DNA of 64,000 bases from NCBI GenBank assembly GCA_017651425.1, contig JAGCCZ010000062.1:24564-88563 (forward strand). Reading direction: 5' to 3'. The notes beneath the pieces were generated by a model that saw only the letters and a program-made list of their open reading frames with translations, was not told the origin of the DNA and did not search any database. This stretch comes from Bacteroidales bacterium (GTDB taxonomy: Bacteria; Bacteroidota; Bacteroidia; Bacteroidales; WCHB1-69). Position numbers and translations under genes: made by a program. Shown here piece after piece: positions 42,137 through 47,879 of this stretch (positions are counted from its first letter, which is position 1; each line of letters begins with the position of its first letter).

Positions 42137-43318
42137 CTAATCTTCAAAATCATACTTGGCAATCTGTTTCCCGTCTTTCAACACGTGCAAGTTATACTCA
42201 GAAACCCTATAATCATAATCCTTGTTCTTGAAAACGAACTGTTCATTTTTCTCATCCCTTGTGCCATTCGTGATGACCAGTTCTGGCTCCGAGTCCATTT
42301 TTTTGTCCGCAGCCCATGCAGCATACCGATAAACACCATCCTTCATCTTGTCAACCCTAATCAGATTTCTTTTGGTCTGTTTCAAGAATTCCATAGACTC
42401 GTAATCTTTCAAAGAAAGATGGAGAAATGGATTGGCAACGGATTTGTCGCCAATCTGCCGCATTTGTTTTCCATCCCACAAGTAGCACAAGTATCTGTCA
42501 TTCAAATAAACATCCTCTTCTGGAACGTACAGGACATTCGTTTTTTCATCAAAATAATCCAACCATTCAAACCCCATCCCACTTGTGCGACTATACCAGT
42601 CACCAGGATAAAACTCATAGGAAACAGCATGCTCCCTTCCACTTTCTTTCGTGTCCCCCTCATGACCGGCGACCTCAACCAGTCCCGAATCTGTTAGCAA
42701 ATAGACACTATATCCGATAAAGCATTCCCCTCCATAAGGAAACTCATCTGCTGTCAAATAATAATTGTCCCCTTTGACATGCAGCGTGCGCAAACTAAAA
42801 GGACAAGCCCCTGTCCAATCATGATAAAGTGAGGCTTGGTAATGTATTTTTCCAGCACGACGATACTGGACGAGCGTATATGCATCGCTCCATCGTCCAT
42901 CATGCTGTGGTTCCCATACATAAAACCGAATCATGCTGTCCTTGGAGTCGAGGATTTGAATATCCGCATAATGGCAGATGGAATCAAATGGGTAGTTCAT
43001 AGAAGAGGAATCAGACATCACCACCTCCTTAAAAAGGTCATAATCAAAATTATAGTAATCAGCTATCATATTTGAGATAGTGACACCGTCGGGGAAAAAG
43101 TAGTGTACCAGTTTCCACTCCGCCTCTTCCATCGAGGAGTAAGTAATCACCGAATCACAGTTCTCTTTGGTATATGAATGCCTTACGACAAGAGTCTTTT
43201 GCGGGAATCGCCGTTCAAATTGAGGCATATCCGTAAAACATTCCGATTGTCTGGATTTGTTTTGACAGGAAAACAACATTGTTGCCACGATGAAAATAAA
43301 AAGCGTTATTCGTTTCAT
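42137..43318 (-). CDS. hypothetical lipoprotein, island paralog family (member 2)
   Basis: ATG 43318 gives MKRITLFIFIVATMLFSCQNK. The track start 43399 overlaps the upstream gene. It shares the identical 15-mer ITYSSMEEAEWKLVH with member 3 and the C-terminal LIRVDKMKDGVYRYAAWAADKKMDSEPELVITNG with member 1. Confidence 0.65.
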   Translation of the reverse strand: MKRITLFIFIVATMLFSCQNKSRQSECFTDMPQFERRFPQKTLVVRHSYTKENCDSVITYSSMEEAEWKLVHYFFPDGVTISNMIADYYNFDYDLFKEVVMSDSSSMNYPFDSICHYADIQILDSKDSMIRFYVWEPQHDGRWSDAYTLVQYRRAGKIHYQASLYHDWTGACPFSLRTLHVKGDNYYLTADEFPYGGECFIGYSVYLLTDSGLVEVAGHEGDTKESGREHAVSYEFYPGDWYSRTSGMGFEWLDYFDEKTNVLYVPEEDVYLNDRYLCYLWDGKQMRQIGDKSVANPFLHLSLKDYESMEFLKQTKRNLIRVDKMKDGVYRYAAWAADKKMDSEPELVITNGTRDEKNEQFVFKNKDYDYRVSEYNLHVLKDGKQIAKYDFED

Positions 43319-43364
43319 ATTCGATGTTTGTCTGAATGTATTATTAACTTCCATGGTGAGGTCA

Positions 43365-44267
43365 TTACTTACACACAAACTTTTTGCCGTTCCAAACAAA
43401 TTTCCTATAATGATCGGTTATTTGGGTTGAACAGCAATATTCATCCATATCTTTATACACATACGTTCGGATATAAATGGCGGATTCGCTTGGATCAAAA
43501 TACCCTAACGTTCTAAAATCATTTTCTGCTAAAGTGTCATACATCTCGTCATTCATACAAATTTCCGTATAGAGGCTTTGGCCATCTTCTTCCCAACCGC
43601 TGAATCCACCTTTCTCTTTAAAAACGAAAGCTGGATGCAATCCTGCGCTGTCCAACTCGTAAGCACACAACCTGTAACTGTCTCCGCTACCCGTATATCC
43701 ATTGTATCCCCAGACAAAATACAGTGTGGAATAACCTGTATTAAAAGTGTAAATGGTGTCAGGCCGTAAGCAATAGTAGCAATCCTCGGCCCGTTCGGGT
43801 TCATCTGCCTTGTGCACTTTGCCATTCATCCTGTAATAGGCCAACATCATAGGCATCTCGTGTGCTGAATGAGGGAATAATCCATAACACCGTATATTTC
43901 CATCTTCGGAAGTGACAGGCTTACAAAGATCGCAGAAAGATTTATCCTCACTAAAAAGTGAATCGAACGGATAATCCATAGACGAAGGGTCGGACAAGAT
44001 TATTTTTTCAAAATCTTCATACGAACAGTTGGGCACAAAATGCACCAACTTCCACTCCGCCTCTTCCATGGAAGAGTAGGTGATTTCTGTGGAATCGTTG
44101 GCATGATGGTGAATCCAAACGAACTTTTGAGGAAATTTTTGTTCGAACTCGGGCGTTTGCATATCTAATGAAGCTACATTCTTGTTGTCGCAACTGAGCA
44201 AAACAGCAGCAAGAAAGAAGATTGATGCAACCAGTGACAGATGATTATTGAATAAATTCTCGCACAT
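43365..44267 (-). CDS. hypothetical lipoprotein, island paralog family (member 3, lacks the C-terminal module)
   Basis: Lipobox AAVLLSCDNK. The N-terminal region PEFEQKFPQK...ITYSSMEEAEWKLVH...DPSSMDYPFDS parallels member 2. Confidence 0.65.
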   Translation of the reverse strand: MCENLFNNHLSLVASIFFLAAVLLSCDNKNVASLDMQTPEFEQKFPQKFVWIHHHANDSTEITYSSMEEAEWKLVHFVPNCSYEDFEKIILSDPSSMDYPFDSLFSEDKSFCDLCKPVTSEDGNIRCYGLFPHSAHEMPMMLAYYRMNGKVHKADEPERAEDCYYCLRPDTIYTFNTGYSTLYFVWGYNGYTGSGDSYRLCAYELDSAGLHPAFVFKEKGGFSGWEEDGQSLYTEICMNDEMYDTLAENDFRTLGYFDPSESAIYIRTYVYKDMDEYCCSTQITDHYRKFVWNGKKFVCK

Positions 44268-44347
44268 GATTATAAAAATTAGGTTAAAAAAATACTGTTT
44301 ATCTTAGAATTTATGAATAACGATGCCAAACGCCCCATTTATCTTGA

Positions 44348-44551
44348 TTAATTACGGTATCTGGATCGAATCAGCAATACGCCAAGAATACAGATTATGA
44401 CAACGGTTCCGACACTGATGATACTATGAGTCACAATAGGAAGATTGAAAAACAGAGGAACAACCTGAGCGATAGCTATGAGGAAAAGTAATATTTCCGA
44501 ACCTTGTTGCAAACGTCTGTTCTTGTTTTGGTTGATGCTATTCGTAAACAC
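44348..44551 (-). CDS. possible small two-TM membrane protein
   Basis: 67 codons with a GTG start only. It has two hydrophobic stretches (ILLFLIAIAQVVPLFF, IISVGTVVIICILGVLLI) and lies 57 nt downstream of the rSAM gene. Confidence 0.35.
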   Translation of the reverse strand: MFTNSINQNKNRRLQQGSEILLFLIAIAQVVPLFFNLPIVTHSIISVGTVVIICILGVLLIRSRYRN

Positions 44552-44608
44552 AATCAGATATTTGAGCTTCCGTCCCAGAGCCTCGATGTTTTTGGGAAAC
44601 TGTCTAGA

Positions 44609-45700
44609 TCAAACTATTTTGTTGTACAGCAAATTAATTTTCTCAATCGCCTTTATCGCAAGTTTATTCTCGTAAGTATCTTCGGGGTTTGAAAGAATTC
44701 TATTCGCTGTCAAAAGTGCAGAAAAGACGGCACGGATTTTTGTAAGTTTGCATTTACTTTTATCTCTTCTATTTATTATCCCATTTGCCAGCATATTTGC
44801 GCCATAACAAGAATTACACACAGGTTCTAGATGGCAATTTTCCCGACACTCCGTGTCAACGAAACACTTTGGATTAGAGAAATCAATGTTATAGATTTCG
44901 GACATTTGATCATCAGAAAAGGTCATTGGGGTAAAAAAGGTACATGGATATCGCCGACCATCGCAATCATAGGCTGCCATATGTTCACCACACCCACACC
45001 ATTTATGTAATTCAGTTTCTTCTTCACATTTGTGAATCGGCATGTTGATAATAGGTGCAGGTTTGTATTGTGGATTATCAATATAGAATTGACACAATTT
45101 ACCAAGTTCTTCTATGATGACATTTACATGATTGTCATCGTCCCAATCTATTCCCTCAGCGAAATTTGATCCTGCTATGTTAAAACCTAATTTATGTATA
45201 TGAACAATATTGTCGTATATGTGATTGATCGTCTGCTTTGAAATAGTCATCTTCACTGTCTGAGTAGGCCAACATTCCAAGAAGAATGGAATATCAATAG
45301 CAGCATATGAATTGGAACGATTTATATTATGATCAGTTGAGGTACCATCAAGACTTAAACTTAACCAAAACTGTTCCTTATGCCGCCGTAGCCAATCTTT
45401 AATTTCCGAAGTCAACAATGTTCCGTTGGTAGTGGCAAAAAAAACATACTTGTTTCGCCACTGTTTCGTCCATGTCCATTCACAAATCTCGCGTATCGTA
45501 TCAAAAGCAACAAATGGTTCTCCCCCAAAAAGATCTATTTCCACTTCATCATAGTTCTGGTCATTAAGATAATTTTCTATAATAGATTTAGCGACGGACT
45601 TTGGCATTTTCATTGTTGATTTTGTGTTTTCGTAACAATAAACACAATTCAAATTGCAACTATGCGTTAATATCAGTGACAAATGGAATTTTCTATTCAT
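44609..45700 (-). CDS. radical SAM / SPASM-domain peptide maturase
   Basis: CNLNCVYC (the CxxxCxxC motif) at residues 15-22. C-terminal auxiliary-cluster cysteines CGCGEHMAAYDCDGRRYPC and CRENCHLEPVCNSCYG. It is immediately preceded by Cys-rich short ORFs. Confidence 0.9.
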   Translation of the reverse strand: MNRKFHLSLILTHSCNLNCVYCYENTKSTMKMPKSVAKSIIENYLNDQNYDEVEIDLFGGEPFVAFDTIREICEWTWTKQWRNKYVFFATTNGTLLTSEIKDWLRRHKEQFWLSLSLDGTSTDHNINRSNSYAAIDIPFFLECWPTQTVKMTISKQTINHIYDNIVHIHKLGFNIAGSNFAEGIDWDDDNHVNVIIEELGKLCQFYIDNPQYKPAPIINMPIHKCEEETELHKWCGCGEHMAAYDCDGRRYPCTFFTPMTFSDDQMSEIYNIDFSNPKCFVDTECRENCHLEPVCNSCYGANMLANGIINRRDKSKCKLTKIRAVFSALLTANRILSNPEDTYENKLAIKAIEKINLLYNKIV

Positions 45701-45869
45701 CTTTTTTGTATTTTTTTAACCCTGATAGTGTACCATCACAACCAGCAATATATTTTCCTTTACATGTATCGGCACATACCCCATTACAAGTCCCTTCACA
45801 ACCCACAAGCCAACGTGAACCGAAAGAAACATTACTCTGCACCCACTTCGCTAATAATTCATAAGCCAA
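45693..45869 (-). CDS. putative Cys-rich RiPP precursor 1 (58 codons, TTG start; not in ORF track)
   Basis: Hand translation: (M)AYELLAKWVQSNVSFGSRWLVGCEGTCNGVCADTCKGKYIAGCDGTLSGLKKYKKDE. It has CxxxCxxxCxxxC spacing. Its stop TAG (45695..45693) overlaps the rSAM ATG (45700..45698) by 8 nt. Confidence 0.5.
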   Translation of the reverse strand: MAYELLAKWVQSNVSFGSRWLVGCEGTCNGVCADTCKGKYIAGCDGTLSGLKKYKKDE

Positions 45870-46090
45870 ATAGTTTGTTTATTTAATTTATTATTTATCA
45901 CATTCGTAATCACAAACTTATCGTTTGAAGCCTTCATTACTCATTAAATCACAACCAATCCAGCCGGCCGTTTATTCATCACTACGCTCACAATCTCTTT
46001 CACCACAATCTCCATTGAAGCAAAACGTATAAAAATGAGGGGAAATCGAATAACAACCTTTTAAACCGCAAATTGACATGAAACCTTCTC

Positions 46091-46132
46091 ATTAAATAAA
46101 ATTTAGGGATAGCCATTAGTGCTATCCCTAAA
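46091..46132 (-). terminator. rho-independent terminator after precursor 2
   Basis: 12-bp perfect stem tttagggatagc / gctatccctaaa (46102..46132), followed on the minus strand by ttttatttaat. Confidence 0.85.
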
Positions 46133-46143
46133 TCAAATGTACG

Positions 46144-46302
46144 TTACGGATTTAAACCACCTGCCGGAGTTCCGTCACAACCGCCAACGCAGTCCCCAGA
46201 ACAGCTACCATCTGAACAATAAGCCCAACCCATGGTAGTTGTTCTTGTTTTGCCTACAATTTGCAAATCATCAAGCTTCTTGACGAGATTTGCATTCAAC
46301 AT
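46144..46302 (-). CDS. putative Cys-rich RiPP precursor 2
   Basis: MLNANLVKKLDDLQIVGKTRTTTMGWAYCSDGSCSGDCVGGCDGTPAGGLNP, taken from ATG 46302. Alternative starts are at 46314 and 46347. It shares W..C..G.C.G.C...C..GCDGT..G with precursor 1 and has its own hairpin terminator. Confidence 0.65.
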   Translation of the reverse strand: MLNANLVKKLDDLQIVGKTRTTTMGWAYCSDGSCSGDCVGGCDGTPAGGLNP

Positions 46303-46766
46303 TTTTGTTACCATAATACAAATTATTTGTTTTGTTGTTACCATCATTTTAAAACTAGGAAGACGGCATTATCCTATTCTTTTACTGTTTCTGTATTTAA
46401 AAATGGTTATCATTATCACTGTCATGACGCATTAAAAATAAGCCAATCAACAATAGCCAACCAAGCTAATAAGGATTCTAGCAGGAATAGCTTTCCCATA
46501 TTGTTTGTATTGGCCAGTTTGCTCACTCATAAAAGCATACGCCGCGTTATATCCCATCCGGCTCCGTCGGGTCTTGTTCTAAATCACTTTGCAAAGTTGC
46601 AAAATATGCCGCATAGAAACATTTGACAATATAAAGCATTTCTGTAACAATATCTTATACACCATCGCTTTGTTGCTTCGCACGTAATCACGCTCGTTTC
46701 TGTCAACCTTGCCAATGAATTGCTTTTTTGTCACTTTTTGCTCCTATGCAATAAAGAAGATAAAAC

Positions 46767-47879
46767 TCACAGCTGAGAGACCCATCTGAAGTCTCCAGAA
46801 TAAATCAGATTCTCTTCGGGGTCATAAACAAACAACTCTTCATGTTGCATACCATTCCTCCAACCATGATAGTACTCGTAACGATAGCCATTGTTGAAAA
46901 AAATGTATTTTTCGCCCAACGGTGAGCTTTCATCATCAGTCCGCCATTCGTCATGGGATATCAGAGTGTTGCTATACGACCATATTTGTTTGGTGCCGTT
47001 TTTTATAACAAGGTCGGGACTCCCCTCTTTTACCCCGCCATTCCAACATTTGTAAGTCCAGTCGTCCTCGCTTTGTTGCTCAATTCGTATGAAGTATTTG
47101 TCATTGCAGAATTCCACAGGTTCATCATATTTCTGCAACTCAAAACGCCGCTTGTTCCAATTATATTGGCGATATTTTAAAGGATTATCTATCAATGGCA
47201 TTCCTTTGAGAACATATAGTTCTTTCCTTAATCTACTGTAGATGAACACGGAATCATTTATCCCCTCGTTGAATGTCAACGACCCGCCCTGATCGTCCCA
47301 AGATAATTCAAGATTATCAGAAACGCTGTCTTTACTGGCAAAAGCCCCTTTTACTTTGCGCAATTCATTGTTTTCTATCTCATATACATAAAAATTGTAT
47401 GTTTCGCATGTCCCTTGATGCATGCTCCCTTGAAAATCTTCCAACAGATAATACTTGTCTGAATCGATATGACAAATTCGAGTAATATACCCATTGAAGT
47501 TTTCAATTTCCTCGCAGAAAACCTTTCCATTGGACCTGTATTGAAGCAATGTTTTGCACTCAAAACCCAAAGAAGGATTGCCTTCAAACCCGCACCTTTC
47601 CACGCTATAGGCTCGCACGTTGCCATCTTCTGAGGTGGCGATTCGTATATGAGAGAGTTTTTCTTCAAATCCATATTCAAGGGACTGAGGTTTTTCCTTG
47701 ATAAAATCGAAGACGGATTGCATGGCTTCGTCGGAATAAGAACCGCCTTCAGGCCATGCAAGCATCTTATTCAACTCTTCAGTGAATGTTCGTTCCTGAC
47801 GACTCTTATCACACCCACAAGAGACGAGGATCAATGCCATAGACAAACAGACTGTTTTAATATAATTTCGGGGTTTCAT
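46767..47879 (-). CDS. hypothetical lipoprotein, island paralog family (member 4, divergent)
   Basis: Lipobox LILVSCGCDK. Its architecture is like members 1-3 (..NVRAYSVE.., ..YFIRIEQQSEDDWTYKCWNGG..GSPDLVIKNG..). Confidence 0.65.
   Translation of the reverse strand: MKPRNYIKTVCLSMALILVSCGCDKSRQERTFTEELNKMLAWPEGGSYSDEAMQSVFDFIKEKPQSLEYGFEEKLSHIRIATSEDGNVRAYSVERCGFEGNPSLGFECKTLLQYRSNGKVFCEEIENFNGYITRICHIDSDKYYLLEDFQGSMHQGTCETYNFYVYEIENNELRKVKGAFASKDSVSDNLELSWDDQGGSLTFNEGINDSVFIYSRLRKELYVLKGMPLIDNPLKYRQYNWNKRRFELQKYDEPVEFCNDKYFIRIEQQSEDDWTYKCWNGGVKEGSPDLVIKNGTKQIWSYSNTLISHDEWRTDDESSPLGEKYIFFNNGYRYEYYHGWRNGMQHEELFVYDPEENLIYSGDFRWVSQL

What the first reader, a model, noticed from the sequence alone, without database searches (positions are those of the whole stretch)
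45693..45869. Unlisted 58-codon ORF with a TTG start whose stop overlaps the rSAM start codon
The six-frame track shows only two antisense plus-strand ORFs here (45601..45864 and 45683..45886). Reading the minus strand codon by codon gives a frame from TTG (45869..45867) to TAG (45695..45693). It encodes five cysteines at i, i+4, i+8, i+12 and i+20, followed by a Lys-rich tail. The 8-nt overlap (GATGAATAG) with the maturase ATG is typical of translational coupling. There is no in-frame ATG, so the start is uncertain. GTG at codon 10 is an alternative. This is the kind of gene that automated annotation would miss.
Basis: seen in the sequence. Interest (0 to 1): 0.55.

Follow-up and report, generated by a model that had tools for sequence, protein, structure and literature searches.

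The report
Leaderless extra Cys-rich ORF before maturase
The small cysteine-rich reading frame is really there and resembles the peptide substrates of the neighbouring radical-SAM enzyme, but it lacks their leader and an ATG start and is absent from related strains, so it is most likely a decayed or very young extra copy; the conserved substrate gene lies 275 bases further upstream.

Summary
A 58-codon frame runs TTG (45869) to TAG (45693) on the minus strand, with Cys at codons 24, 28, 32, 36 and 44, and overlaps the rSAM ATG by 8 nt. It is not "unlisted": GenBank holds it as MBO7587401.1 (hypothetical protein, Bacteroidales MAG).

Its core (codons 24-50) is a genuine CxxxC-repeat sequence of the type found upstream of this maturase clade. 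The rest does not fit a working precursor:
- Its N-terminus has no similarity to the family leader.
- It is one of 2 of 32 family-type ORFs without an in-frame ATG.
- It is the only one overlapping the maturase.
- It has no homologue in 5.8 billion protein clusters.
- It is absent upstream of the nearest diverged maturase (L171) and of all relatives at 60-82% identity.
- The "coupling" overlap is just the maturase's own conserved codons (ATG AAT AGA), and the Lys-rich tail is its A-rich 5' region.

The conserved precursor is at 46144..46314 (MVTKMLNANL…YCSDGSCSGDCVGGCDGTPAGG) and is followed by a terminator-like hairpin.

Best reading: a lineage-specific, leaderless remnant or young divergent copy of a precursor gene, lying in the maturase's 5' region (~0.55). 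A functional TTG-initiated second substrate is not excluded (~0.25).

The parts
45693..45869 (-). The ORF in question: 58 codons, TTG..TAG, no in-frame ATG. GenBank MBO7587401.1.
45720..45800 (-). Core-like segment (codons 24-50) CEGTCNGVCADTCKGKYIAGCDGTLSG. This is the only part with significant similarity to family precursors.
45801..45869 (-). N-terminal 23 codons (L)AYELLAKWVQSNVSFGSRWLVG. No detectable homology to the family leader.
   Evidence: score -1.4 bits, no better than shuffles
45693..45719 (-). Lys-rich tail LKKYKKDE plus stop. It is encoded by the A-rich 5' region and first codons (ATG AAT AGA) of the maturase gene. That A-rich region and ATGAATAG are also present in L171, L173 and L174; the conserved alignment with L171 starts only about 6 nt before the ATG.
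44609..45700 (-). rSAM/SPASM-type peptide maturase, 363 aa. CX3CX2C at C15/C19/C22; conserved C-terminal Cys set; no N-terminal RRE extension. Nearest models are PapB and TIGR04115, both below cut-off.
46144..46314 (-). Conserved precursor p1: MVTKMLNANLVKKLDDLQIVGKTRTTTMGWAYCSDGSCSGDCVGGCDGTPAGGLNP.
   Evidence: (E=5.5e-28)
46100..46134 (-). Terminator-like hairpin (14 bp stem, -20.5 kcal/mol) plus T tract, directly after p1. It has positional equivalents in relatives.
   Evidence: (I5)
45972..46079 (-). Middle 35-codon Cys-rich ORF (ATG) MSICGLKGCYSISPHFYTFCFNGDCGERDCERSDE, in the same frame as the target ORF. Similarity to the family is not significant.
45882..45971 (-). Same-frame Cys-containing fragments interrupted by TAA stops (TAGWIGCDLMSNEGFKR*VCDYECDK**IK*). 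Possible debris of earlier precursor copies.
45913..45920 (-). Bacteroidetes -7-like promoter motif TAAGTTTG, 43 nt upstream of the TTG. Candidate internal promoter for the maturase transcript; a motif match only.
45860..45880 (-). 21-nt block 81% identical to the block around p1's ATG. It contains an out-of-frame ATG (45862..45860, M-N-Y-stop). Marginal evidence for a frameshifted duplicate.
   Evidence: D4; P~0.04

Best explanation
The locus is a two-gene RiPP module: a precursor gene (p1, 46144..46314), a terminator-like hairpin, and an rSAM/SPASM maturase (44609..45700). The maturase most likely installs intramolecular thioether (ranthipeptide-type) cross-links from the core cysteines; this chemistry is inferred from homology to PapB and CteB and is not shown. 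The 58-codon ORF lies in the variable spacer between hairpin and maturase, where some relatives carry a second, complete precursor gene. It is a lineage-specific copy of a CxxxC-repeat core that has lost, or never had, the family leader and the ATG start. The frame then simply stays open upstream to a TTG. Downstream it runs through the maturase's A-rich 5' region until the out-of-frame TAG inside the maturase's codons ATG-AAT-AGA. I therefore read it as a remnant, or a very young and diverged copy, of a precursor gene that is probably not a regular substrate. If ribosomes translate it at all, the main consequence would be delivering ribosomes to the maturase start. Shown: the anatomy, the core similarity, the lack of leader similarity and the lack of conservation. 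Inferred: non-functionality and the enzyme chemistry.
For: - Conserved partner is elsewhere. p1 orthologues with a near-invariant core sit upstream of every close maturase relative. A profile built without the window finds p1 at E=5.5e-28. p1 has 35 homologous clusters, against none for the target peptide.
- The target matches family profiles only over codons 24-50 (9.5 and 7.8 bits; second best of 1677 window ORFs).
- Two leader-only profiles give no hit.
- 30 of 32 CxxxC-type ORFs upstream of clade maturases have an in-frame ATG 22-56 codons before the Cys motif; the target does not. It is also the only one that overlaps the maturase; the others end 8-495 nt upstream.
- The ORF is absent in L171, whose maturase is in the same 90% protein cluster at ~85% nt identity. 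Homology there starts only ~6-18 nt before the ATG, and the frame has in-frame stops. L162-165, L167, L169, L175 and L180 have no second ORF. L161, L082 and L168 have a different second precursor with ATG and leader.
- The stop and tail are dictated by maturase sequence that L171, L173 and L174 also carry.
- The same frame upstream holds further Cys-containing pieces broken by TAA stops.
- A 21-nt block containing an out-of-frame ATG resembles the block around p1's ATG.
- ORF length alone is not unusual (P=0.17).
Against: - Five cysteines remain in register (4 x CxxxC plus the family's terminal GCDGT..G motif) although the rest of the core is only about 30-45% identical to any relative. Neutral decay would be expected to erode Cys codons too.
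- The frame is uninterrupted for 61 codons in 35% GC DNA, whereas the neighbouring same-frame fragments are broken.
- NCBI's pipeline predicted it as a gene.
- A Bacteroidetes -7-like motif 43 nt upstream would make it the first cistron of a maturase transcript.
- This enzyme has no RRE domain, and its relative PapB can modify leaderless peptides in vitro (PMC12715619), so a missing leader does not strictly exclude modification.
- All copies available are near-clonal, so purifying selection on the ORF could not be tested.
Confidence: 0.55

Rival explanations
1. It is a functional second precursor peptide, initiated at TTG (or the GTG at codon 10). It carries a novel or dispensable leader, is translated as the first cistron of the maturase transcript, is translationally coupled to the maturase, and is cross-linked by it into a distinct product.
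For: - The core is a significant CxxxC-repeat match with the terminal GCDGT..G motif.
- It is on the same strand, immediately upstream of the maturase, at the position where L161, L082 and L168 carry a second precursor.
- The frame is intact while its neighbours are broken.
- PGAP calls it a gene.
- There is a candidate -7 promoter motif 43 nt upstream.
- The maturase lacks an RRE, and PapB shows leader-independent activity (PMC12715619).
- RiPP second precursors are commonly lineage-specific (established knowledge).
Against: - No ATG, whereas 30 of 32 family-type ORFs have one.
- No leader similarity, although the leader motif M.TnlLN..li.kl..l is kept even in divergent second precursors.
- No homologue anywhere, and absent in L171.
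- The 3' end is fixed by maturase sequence, not by its own stop.
- The TIGR04114 score of 14.2 is below the cut-off of 20.
Confidence: 0.25
2. It acts as a regulatory upstream ORF. Its translation, through a run of Cys codons ending inside the maturase start, sets how many ribosomes re-initiate at the maturase ATG. That would tie enzyme synthesis to read-through of the p1 terminator or to cysteine supply. The peptide itself would be unimportant.
For: - The 8-nt stop/start overlap is there.
- The ORF lies between a terminator-like hairpin and the maturase.
- It has five Cys codons in 21 codons.
- Bacteroidetes lack Shine-Dalgarno-led initiation, so upstream translation can matter (own knowledge, not tested here).
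Against: - Relatives express the maturase without any such ORF, with 36-105 nt untranslated spacers.
- The overlap sequence is just the conserved maturase codons.
- There is no conservation to indicate a selected regulatory role.
- The maturase has its own A-rich initiation region.
Confidence: 0.1
3. It is a chance open frame with no evolutionary relation to precursor genes.
For: Open stretches of this length arise in 17% of shuffles of the spacer. The region is AT-rich intergenic DNA.
Against: The Cys periodicity is unique among 1677 window ORFs. Alignment to family cores beats composition-preserving shuffles in at least 999 of 1000 trials for every core tested, and the ORF is the second-best hit of two family profiles.
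Confidence: 0.03

Closest known systems
CXXX-repeat radical-SAM target peptides and their maturases (NCBIfam TIGR04114 / TIGR04117 / TIGR04118 targets; TIGR04115 maturase)
   Same: Small peptides with Cys every fourth residue are encoded just upstream of a short (~360 aa) rSAM/SPASM enzyme without an RRE. More distant members of this maturase clade have precursors that pass TIGR04114 (24.1 and 22.4 bits against a cut-off of 20). The target ORF's best family hits are TIGR04117 and TIGR04114.
   Different: The target ORF scores below cut-off (14.2 against 20; 14.9 against 50). The window's maturase and all nine clade members tested score 98-135 bits against the TIGR04115 cut-off of 350, so the clade is a relative and not a member. 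The target also lacks a leader and an ATG.
PapA/PapB (freyrasin) ranthipeptide system of Paenibacillus
   Same: PapB is the best-scoring model for the maturase (NF047865, E=8e-41, aligned 5-328 of 330). PapB makes Cys-to-Asp/Glu thioethers in Cys-X3-Asp/Glu motifs (PMC9413430). The cores here are rich in Cys with nearby Asp/Glu.
   Different: The score of 140 bits is far below the cut-off of 340, whereas a true PapB (L044, Paenibacillus ottowii) scores 406. The motif here is CxxxC and not CX3D. PapB has an RRE domain (PMC12715619), and this enzyme starts directly with the rSAM motif.
CteB / SCIFF-type thioether-forming rSAM-SPASM maturases (PDB 5wgg, 5why)
   Same: This is the only solved structure found by sequence (E=3.4e-14). 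The alignment covers query residues 7-324 against chain residues 99-442, that is, the rSAM and SPASM parts.
   Different: The N-terminal ~98 residues of the solved chain have no counterpart here. TIGR03974 scores 75 bits against a cut-off of 425.
Second precursor genes (p2) in sister loci L161, L082 and L168
   Same: They occupy the same position between p1 and the maturase on the same strand, with a CxxxC-type core ending in GCDG/GCEG. The target's best pairwise score is with L161 p2 (77, 0 of 1000 shuffles).
   Different: The p2 genes have an ATG and the canonical leader (QLNANLTKSLxxLQIEG), and they end 36-49 nt before the maturase. There is no DNA-level similarity to the target (E>=0.2), and a distant family core (L099) scores almost as high (74).

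Membership tests
CXXX-repeat rSAM target peptide (TIGR04114/TIGR04117) | Repeated Cys-Xaa-Xaa-Xaa units scoring above the model cut-off | tested here: not met
   Four consecutive CxxxC units are present, but TIGR04114 scores 14.2 bits (cut-off 20) and TIGR04117 scores 14.9 (cut-off 50).
CXXX-repeat rSAM target peptide (TIGR04114/TIGR04117) | Encoded next to, and on the same strand as, an rSAM/SPASM peptide maturase | tested here: met
   The stop overlaps the ATG of the 363-aa rSAM at 44609..45700.
Precursor family of this maturase clade (p1/p2 type) | N-terminal leader with the motif M.TnlLN..li.kl..l / LNANLxxxLxxLQIEG | tested here: not met
   Leader-only HMMs find p1 at E=5e-12 and 1.8e-8 but not the target. 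The target's N-terminus scores -1.4 bits, and 632 of 1511 scored shuffles do as well.
Precursor family of this maturase clade (p1/p2 type) | Cys-rich core alignable to family cores | tested here: met
   Second-best of 1677 window ORFs with two profiles (9.5 and 7.8 bits; 3 of 2000 and 11 of 3000 shuffles reach these). In pairwise tests, 0 of 1000 shuffles reach the observed score for seven of eight cores and 1 of 1000 for the eighth.
Precursor family of this maturase clade (p1/p2 type) | In-frame ATG start 22-56 codons before the Cys motif | tested here: not met
   30 of 32 family-type ORFs have one. The target has none between the upstream TAA and the core.
Precursor family of this maturase clade (p1/p2 type) | Reading frame conserved in orthologous loci | tested here: not met
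   It is found only in copies at least 99.8% identical (L166, L170, L172). It is absent in L171 and in all loci with 60-82% maturase identity, and no protein homologue exists.
PapB-family ranthipeptide maturase (NF047865), for the neighbouring enzyme | Score above the curated cut-off of 340 bits | tested here: not met
   140.3 bits. Clade members score 124-147, and a genuine Paenibacillus PapB scores 406.
TIGR04115 CXXX-repeat-target rSAM maturase, for the neighbouring enzyme | Score above the curated cut-off of 350 bits | tested here: not met
   126.3 bits. Clade members score 98-135.
rSAM/SPASM peptide maturase (general), for the neighbouring enzyme | CX3CX2C SAM-cluster motif plus a C-terminal Cys set for auxiliary clusters | tested here: met
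   C15, C19 and C22 are invariant, as are C235, C253, C285, C289, C295, C298 and C317 across 29 homologues. Pfam Radical_SAM and Fer4_12 hit. There are end-to-end alignments to PapB, TIGR04115 and CteB. The Pfam SPASM model itself did not hit.
Translationally coupled gene pair | Stop/start overlap that is maintained because of coupling | tested here: inconclusive
   The overlap exists, but ATGAATAG is simply the maturase's codons M-N-R and is conserved where the ORF is absent. Actual coupling cannot be tested with these tools.

The most novel reading that the evidence does not exclude
The ORF is a functional, TTG-initiated precursor without the family leader. The RRE-less maturase would modify it without leader recognition, and it would be made only from the maturase's own transcript through stop/start overlap. 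That would make it a natural example of leader-independent RiPP maturation, yielding a second, lineage-specific cross-linked peptide.
Probability: 0.15. Interest if true: 0.6.

Novelty: new member of a known kind. Interest (0 to 1): 0.25.

Why it matters
The ORF itself matters little. It is an already-annotated, strain-specific, probably decaying or nascent copy of a RiPP core. It does show how precursor copies are gained and lost in the spacer between a precursor gene and its maturase.

The useful correction is for anyone mining this locus. The substrate to clone is the conserved p1 gene at 46144..46314, not the ORF that abuts the enzyme.

The surrounding system is of more interest. It is an uncharacterised two-gene rSAM module, found here mainly in gut and rumen-type metagenomes and MAGs, and no NCBIfam equivalog model covers it. 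Its 22-residue core YCSDGSCSGDCVGGCDGTPAGG is about 95% conserved while its leaders drift to about 34% identity.

Tried and rejected
1. Orthologue of the second precursor (p2) of L161/L082. Pairwise protein similarity is significant, but a distant family core scores equally well, and DNA similarity is nil. Rejected as specific orthology.
2. Hidden leader homology. By eye, (L)AYELLAKWV resembles MLTELLNSML of L175, with the TTG aligned to the ATG. A broadened leader HMM gives -1.4 bits, no better than shuffles. Rejected.
3. A leader encoded in another frame upstream (frameshift or sequencing error). Three-frame translation and leader HMMs find nothing in 45870..46143. Four independent assemblies give the same sequence, so assembly error is excluded.
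4. A frameshifted duplicate of p1. Colinear repeats D4 and D2 have offsets of 452 and 439, and an out-of-frame ATG sits at 45862. Overall alignment gives z~2 and the start block P~0.04. Kept only as suggestive.
5. The middle ORF 45972..46079 as a decayed precursor. The HMM gives 1.0 bit. Not supported.
6. Rfam families in the spacer: only a sub-threshold chance hit.
7. The sigma-70 promoter scan is uninformative for Bacteroidetes.
8. Codon-level selection (dN/dS) was impossible. The only other copies are 99.8-100% identical, with no substitutions in the ORF.
9. Literature: no paper in the library contains the p1 core string or describes this clade. Haft & Basu 2011 is not held.

Full report
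**Observation**

On the minus strand a frame opens after TAA (45881..45879), has TTG at 45869..45867, and ends at TAG 45695..45693. It translates to (L/M)AYELLAKWVQSNVSFGSRWLVGCEGTCNGVCADTCKGKYIAGCDGTLSGLKKYKKDE. Cys fall at codons 24, 28, 32, 36 and 44, there is no in-frame ATG, and GTG is at codon 10. The next gene, a 363-aa radical-SAM protein (44609..45700), starts at ATG 45700..45698, so the two overlap by 8 nt. All the sequence statements in the finding are correct.

The claim that the ORF is unlisted is not correct. The mechanical ORF list shows it. The identical 58-aa product is in GenBank as MBO7587401.1, a hypothetical protein of a Bacteroidales MAG, beside the rSAM MBO7587400.1.

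**Is it more than chance?**

- The open frame alone is not. 17% of dinucleotide shuffles of the stretch between precursor 1's stop and this ORF's stop contain an equally long open stretch on this strand.
- The cysteine pattern is. This is the only one of 1677 stop-to-stop ORFs in the window with four Cys in CxxxC register.
- Its residues 23-50 align to cores of family precursors far better than composition-preserving shuffles do (0 of 1000 for seven of eight cores, 1 of 1000 for the eighth).

**The neighbouring enzyme**

- It has the CX3CX2C motif at C15/C19/C22 and a conserved C-terminal set of cysteines.
- It hits Pfam Radical_SAM and Fer4_12.
- It aligns end to end with PapB (NF047865, 140 bits) and with the CXXX-repeat-target maturase TIGR04115 (126 bits), but far below their cut-offs of 340 and 350.
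- Nine clade members behave the same way, whereas a true Paenibacillus PapB passes at 406 bits.
- The only solved relative found by sequence is CteB (5wgg/5why, E=3e-14). It aligns from chain residue 99 onward, so the enzyme here lacks the N-terminal recognition domain.
- It is therefore an rSAM/SPASM peptide maturase of a clade without its own NCBIfam model.

**What sits upstream of this enzyme's relatives**

I collected about 180 loci. Upstream of the maturase, on the same strand, there is typically a small gene with a 22-56-residue leader and a CxxxC-repeat core. Some of these cores pass the TIGR04114 model.

In the close clade (60-82% maturase identity) the conserved gene is the orthologue of window ORF 46144..46314 (p1):
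- Its sequence is MVTKMLNANLVKKLDDLQIVGKTRTTTMGWAYCSDGSCSGDCVGGCDGTPAGGLNP.
- A profile built only from relatives finds it in the window at E=5.5e-28.
- It has 35 homologous protein clusters.
- Across them the core is about 95% identical while the leaders are about 34% identical.
- In the window and most relatives a strong hairpin with a T tract follows p1 (46134..46100). This is a terminator-like signal between precursor and enzyme, a layout common in RiPP operons (own knowledge).

**How the target ORF compares**

1. Family profiles match only its core: 9.5 and 7.8 bits, the second-best hit in the window, with 3 of 2000 and 11 of 3000 shuffles reaching those scores.
2. Two leader-only profiles do not match its N-terminus at all. 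An apparent resemblance to MLTELLNSML-type leaders scores -1.4 bits, the same as shuffles.
3. Of 32 CxxxC-type ORFs upstream of clade maturases, 30 have an in-frame ATG. The target is one of the two that do not. It is also the only one overlapping the maturase; the others end 8-495 nt upstream.
4. A search of 5.8 billion protein clusters returns only the query itself.
5. The ORF occurs only in near-clonal copies: L166 and L172 are 100% identical, and L170 is 99.8% identical with no change in the ORF. These show the sequence is not an assembly error, but they give no power for a selection test.
6. The nearest diverged relative is L171, whose maturase is ~85% identical at DNA level and in the same 90% protein cluster. 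Its upstream DNA is unrelated until a few to about 18 nt before the ATG, depending on the alignment, and has stops in this frame.
7. L162-165, L167, L169, L175 and L180 have only p1. L161, L082 and L168 have a second precursor at this position, but with an ATG and the canonical leader and no DNA similarity to the target.

**The 3' end**

ATGAATAG is the maturase's codons M-N-R read out of frame, and the Lys-rich tail is the enzyme's A-rich 5' region. The same A-rich sequence and ATGAATAG are present in L171, L173 and L174. In L171 the same frame reads LNK*KNE*. The overlap is thus a by-product of maturase sequence and is not evidence of designed coupling.

**The spacer**

The 443-nt spacer between p1 and the maturase is 35% GC, against 50% for the window. 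In the same frame as the target ORF it contains a 35-codon Cys-rich ATG ORF (45972..46079) and further Cys-containing pieces broken by TAA stops. A 21-nt block at 45860..45880 is 81% identical to the block around p1's ATG, and it carries an ATG that is out of frame with the core (M-N-Y-stop). Together with the core repeat, the two offsets (452 and 439 nt) differ by 13 nt. This fits a duplicated precursor that lost its frame, but the statistics are marginal (P~0.04, overall z~2).

**Conclusion**

The most likely reading (about 0.55) is a lineage-specific remnant, or a young and strongly diverged copy, of a precursor gene lying in the maturase's 5' region.

Several points count against that reading:
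- The five cysteines and the terminal GCDGT..G motif are intact.
- The frame is unbroken although its neighbours are broken.
- PGAP predicts a gene.
- A Bacteroidetes -7-like motif, TAAGTTTG, lies 43 nt upstream.
- The related enzyme PapB can act without a leader in vitro (PMC12715619), and this enzyme has no recognition domain.

I therefore leave about 0.25 for a functional TTG-initiated second substrate, about 0.1 for a purely regulatory upstream ORF, and almost nothing for pure chance.

The chemistry is inferred from homology only: thioether cross-links of the ranthipeptide type, as made by PapB in Cys-X3-Asp/Glu motifs (PMC9413430).

**Novelty**

The ORF is an already-annotated, non-conserved member or relic of a known kind (CXXX-repeat rSAM targets). 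The surrounding p1-maturase module is uncharacterised as far as the searchable literature shows. Its invariant core with variable leaders is the more interesting feature of the locus.

Noticed in passing
window 46144..46314 (-): This is the conserved precursor gene of the locus (p1). It has 35 homologous clusters, all unnamed. Its core YCSDGSCSGDCVGGCDGTPAGG is ~95% pairwise identical while its leaders are ~34%, the reverse of the usual RiPP pattern. None of its five ATG-start versions is held under an NCBI source, so it may be missing from the GenBank annotation that does list the target ORF.
   Followed up: partly
P0131, P0133, P0136, P0138-P0140, P0145, P0147, P0159; L180:2142-2396: Some p1 homologues (75-85 aa) carry two tandem copies of the invariant core behind one leader, joined by a short GTPRG/GTPAGG-type linker.
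   Followed up: no
window 45972..46079 (-) and 45882..45971 (-): A 35-codon ATG ORF (MSICGLKGCYSISPHFYTFCFNGDCGERDCERSDE) and further Cys-containing pieces broken by TAA stops lie in the same frame as the target ORF. 'YTFC.[ND]G.C' resembles p1 cores of L168 and L169, but the profile score is only 1.0 bit.
   Followed up: partly
window 46100..46134 (-): A 14-bp-stem hairpin (-20.5 kcal/mol) with a T tract lies immediately after p1's stop. Hairpins at the same position, but with different sequence, occur in L162, L167, L169, L175, L168 and L001. A likely terminator or attenuator between precursor and maturase.
   Followed up: partly
L173:1-140 and L174 (two independent samples): The maturase (~89% nt identity to the window's) has an in-frame TAG at codon 7 (TTG->TAG), before the CX3CX2C motif, so gene callers start it 31 residues late. 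It is possibly a pseudogene in that strain.
   Followed up: no
L008:1561-1650 (Treponema MAG): A 29-codon ATG-less CxxxC ORF (NYKFFRHSTDNCNSRCTGYCDTSCDYQLM) lies between a complete precursor and the maturase. It is a second case of a leaderless core-only ORF in this family.
   Followed up: no
window 44300..46400 against flanks; L161-L183: The p1-maturase module is 35-38% GC in a window averaging 50%, and its flanking genes differ in every relative (DUF4062, BNR sialidase, epimerase, TetR/OEP and others). No protease or transporter is linked. The two-gene module seems to move between genomic contexts.
   Followed up: partly
window 45913..45920 (-) and 46134..46141 (-): There are two Bacteroidetes -7-like promoter motifs (TAAGTTTG, TACATTTG) on the coding strand inside the 443-nt spacer. 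About 0.1-0.3 would be expected by chance. No exact motif was seen upstream of p1.
   Followed up: no
window 42137..43399 (-) and 43365..44267 (-): Two adjacent paralogous putative lipoproteins share the motif YSSMEEAEWKLVH. Neither hits any Pfam or NCBIfam family. A further family-less lipoprotein lies at 46767..47879, on the other side of the module.
   Followed up: no
window 44348..44551 (-): A 67-codon GTG-start ORF with two predicted hydrophobic helices lies 57 nt downstream of the maturase. It was not seen downstream of the maturase in relatives.
   Followed up: no
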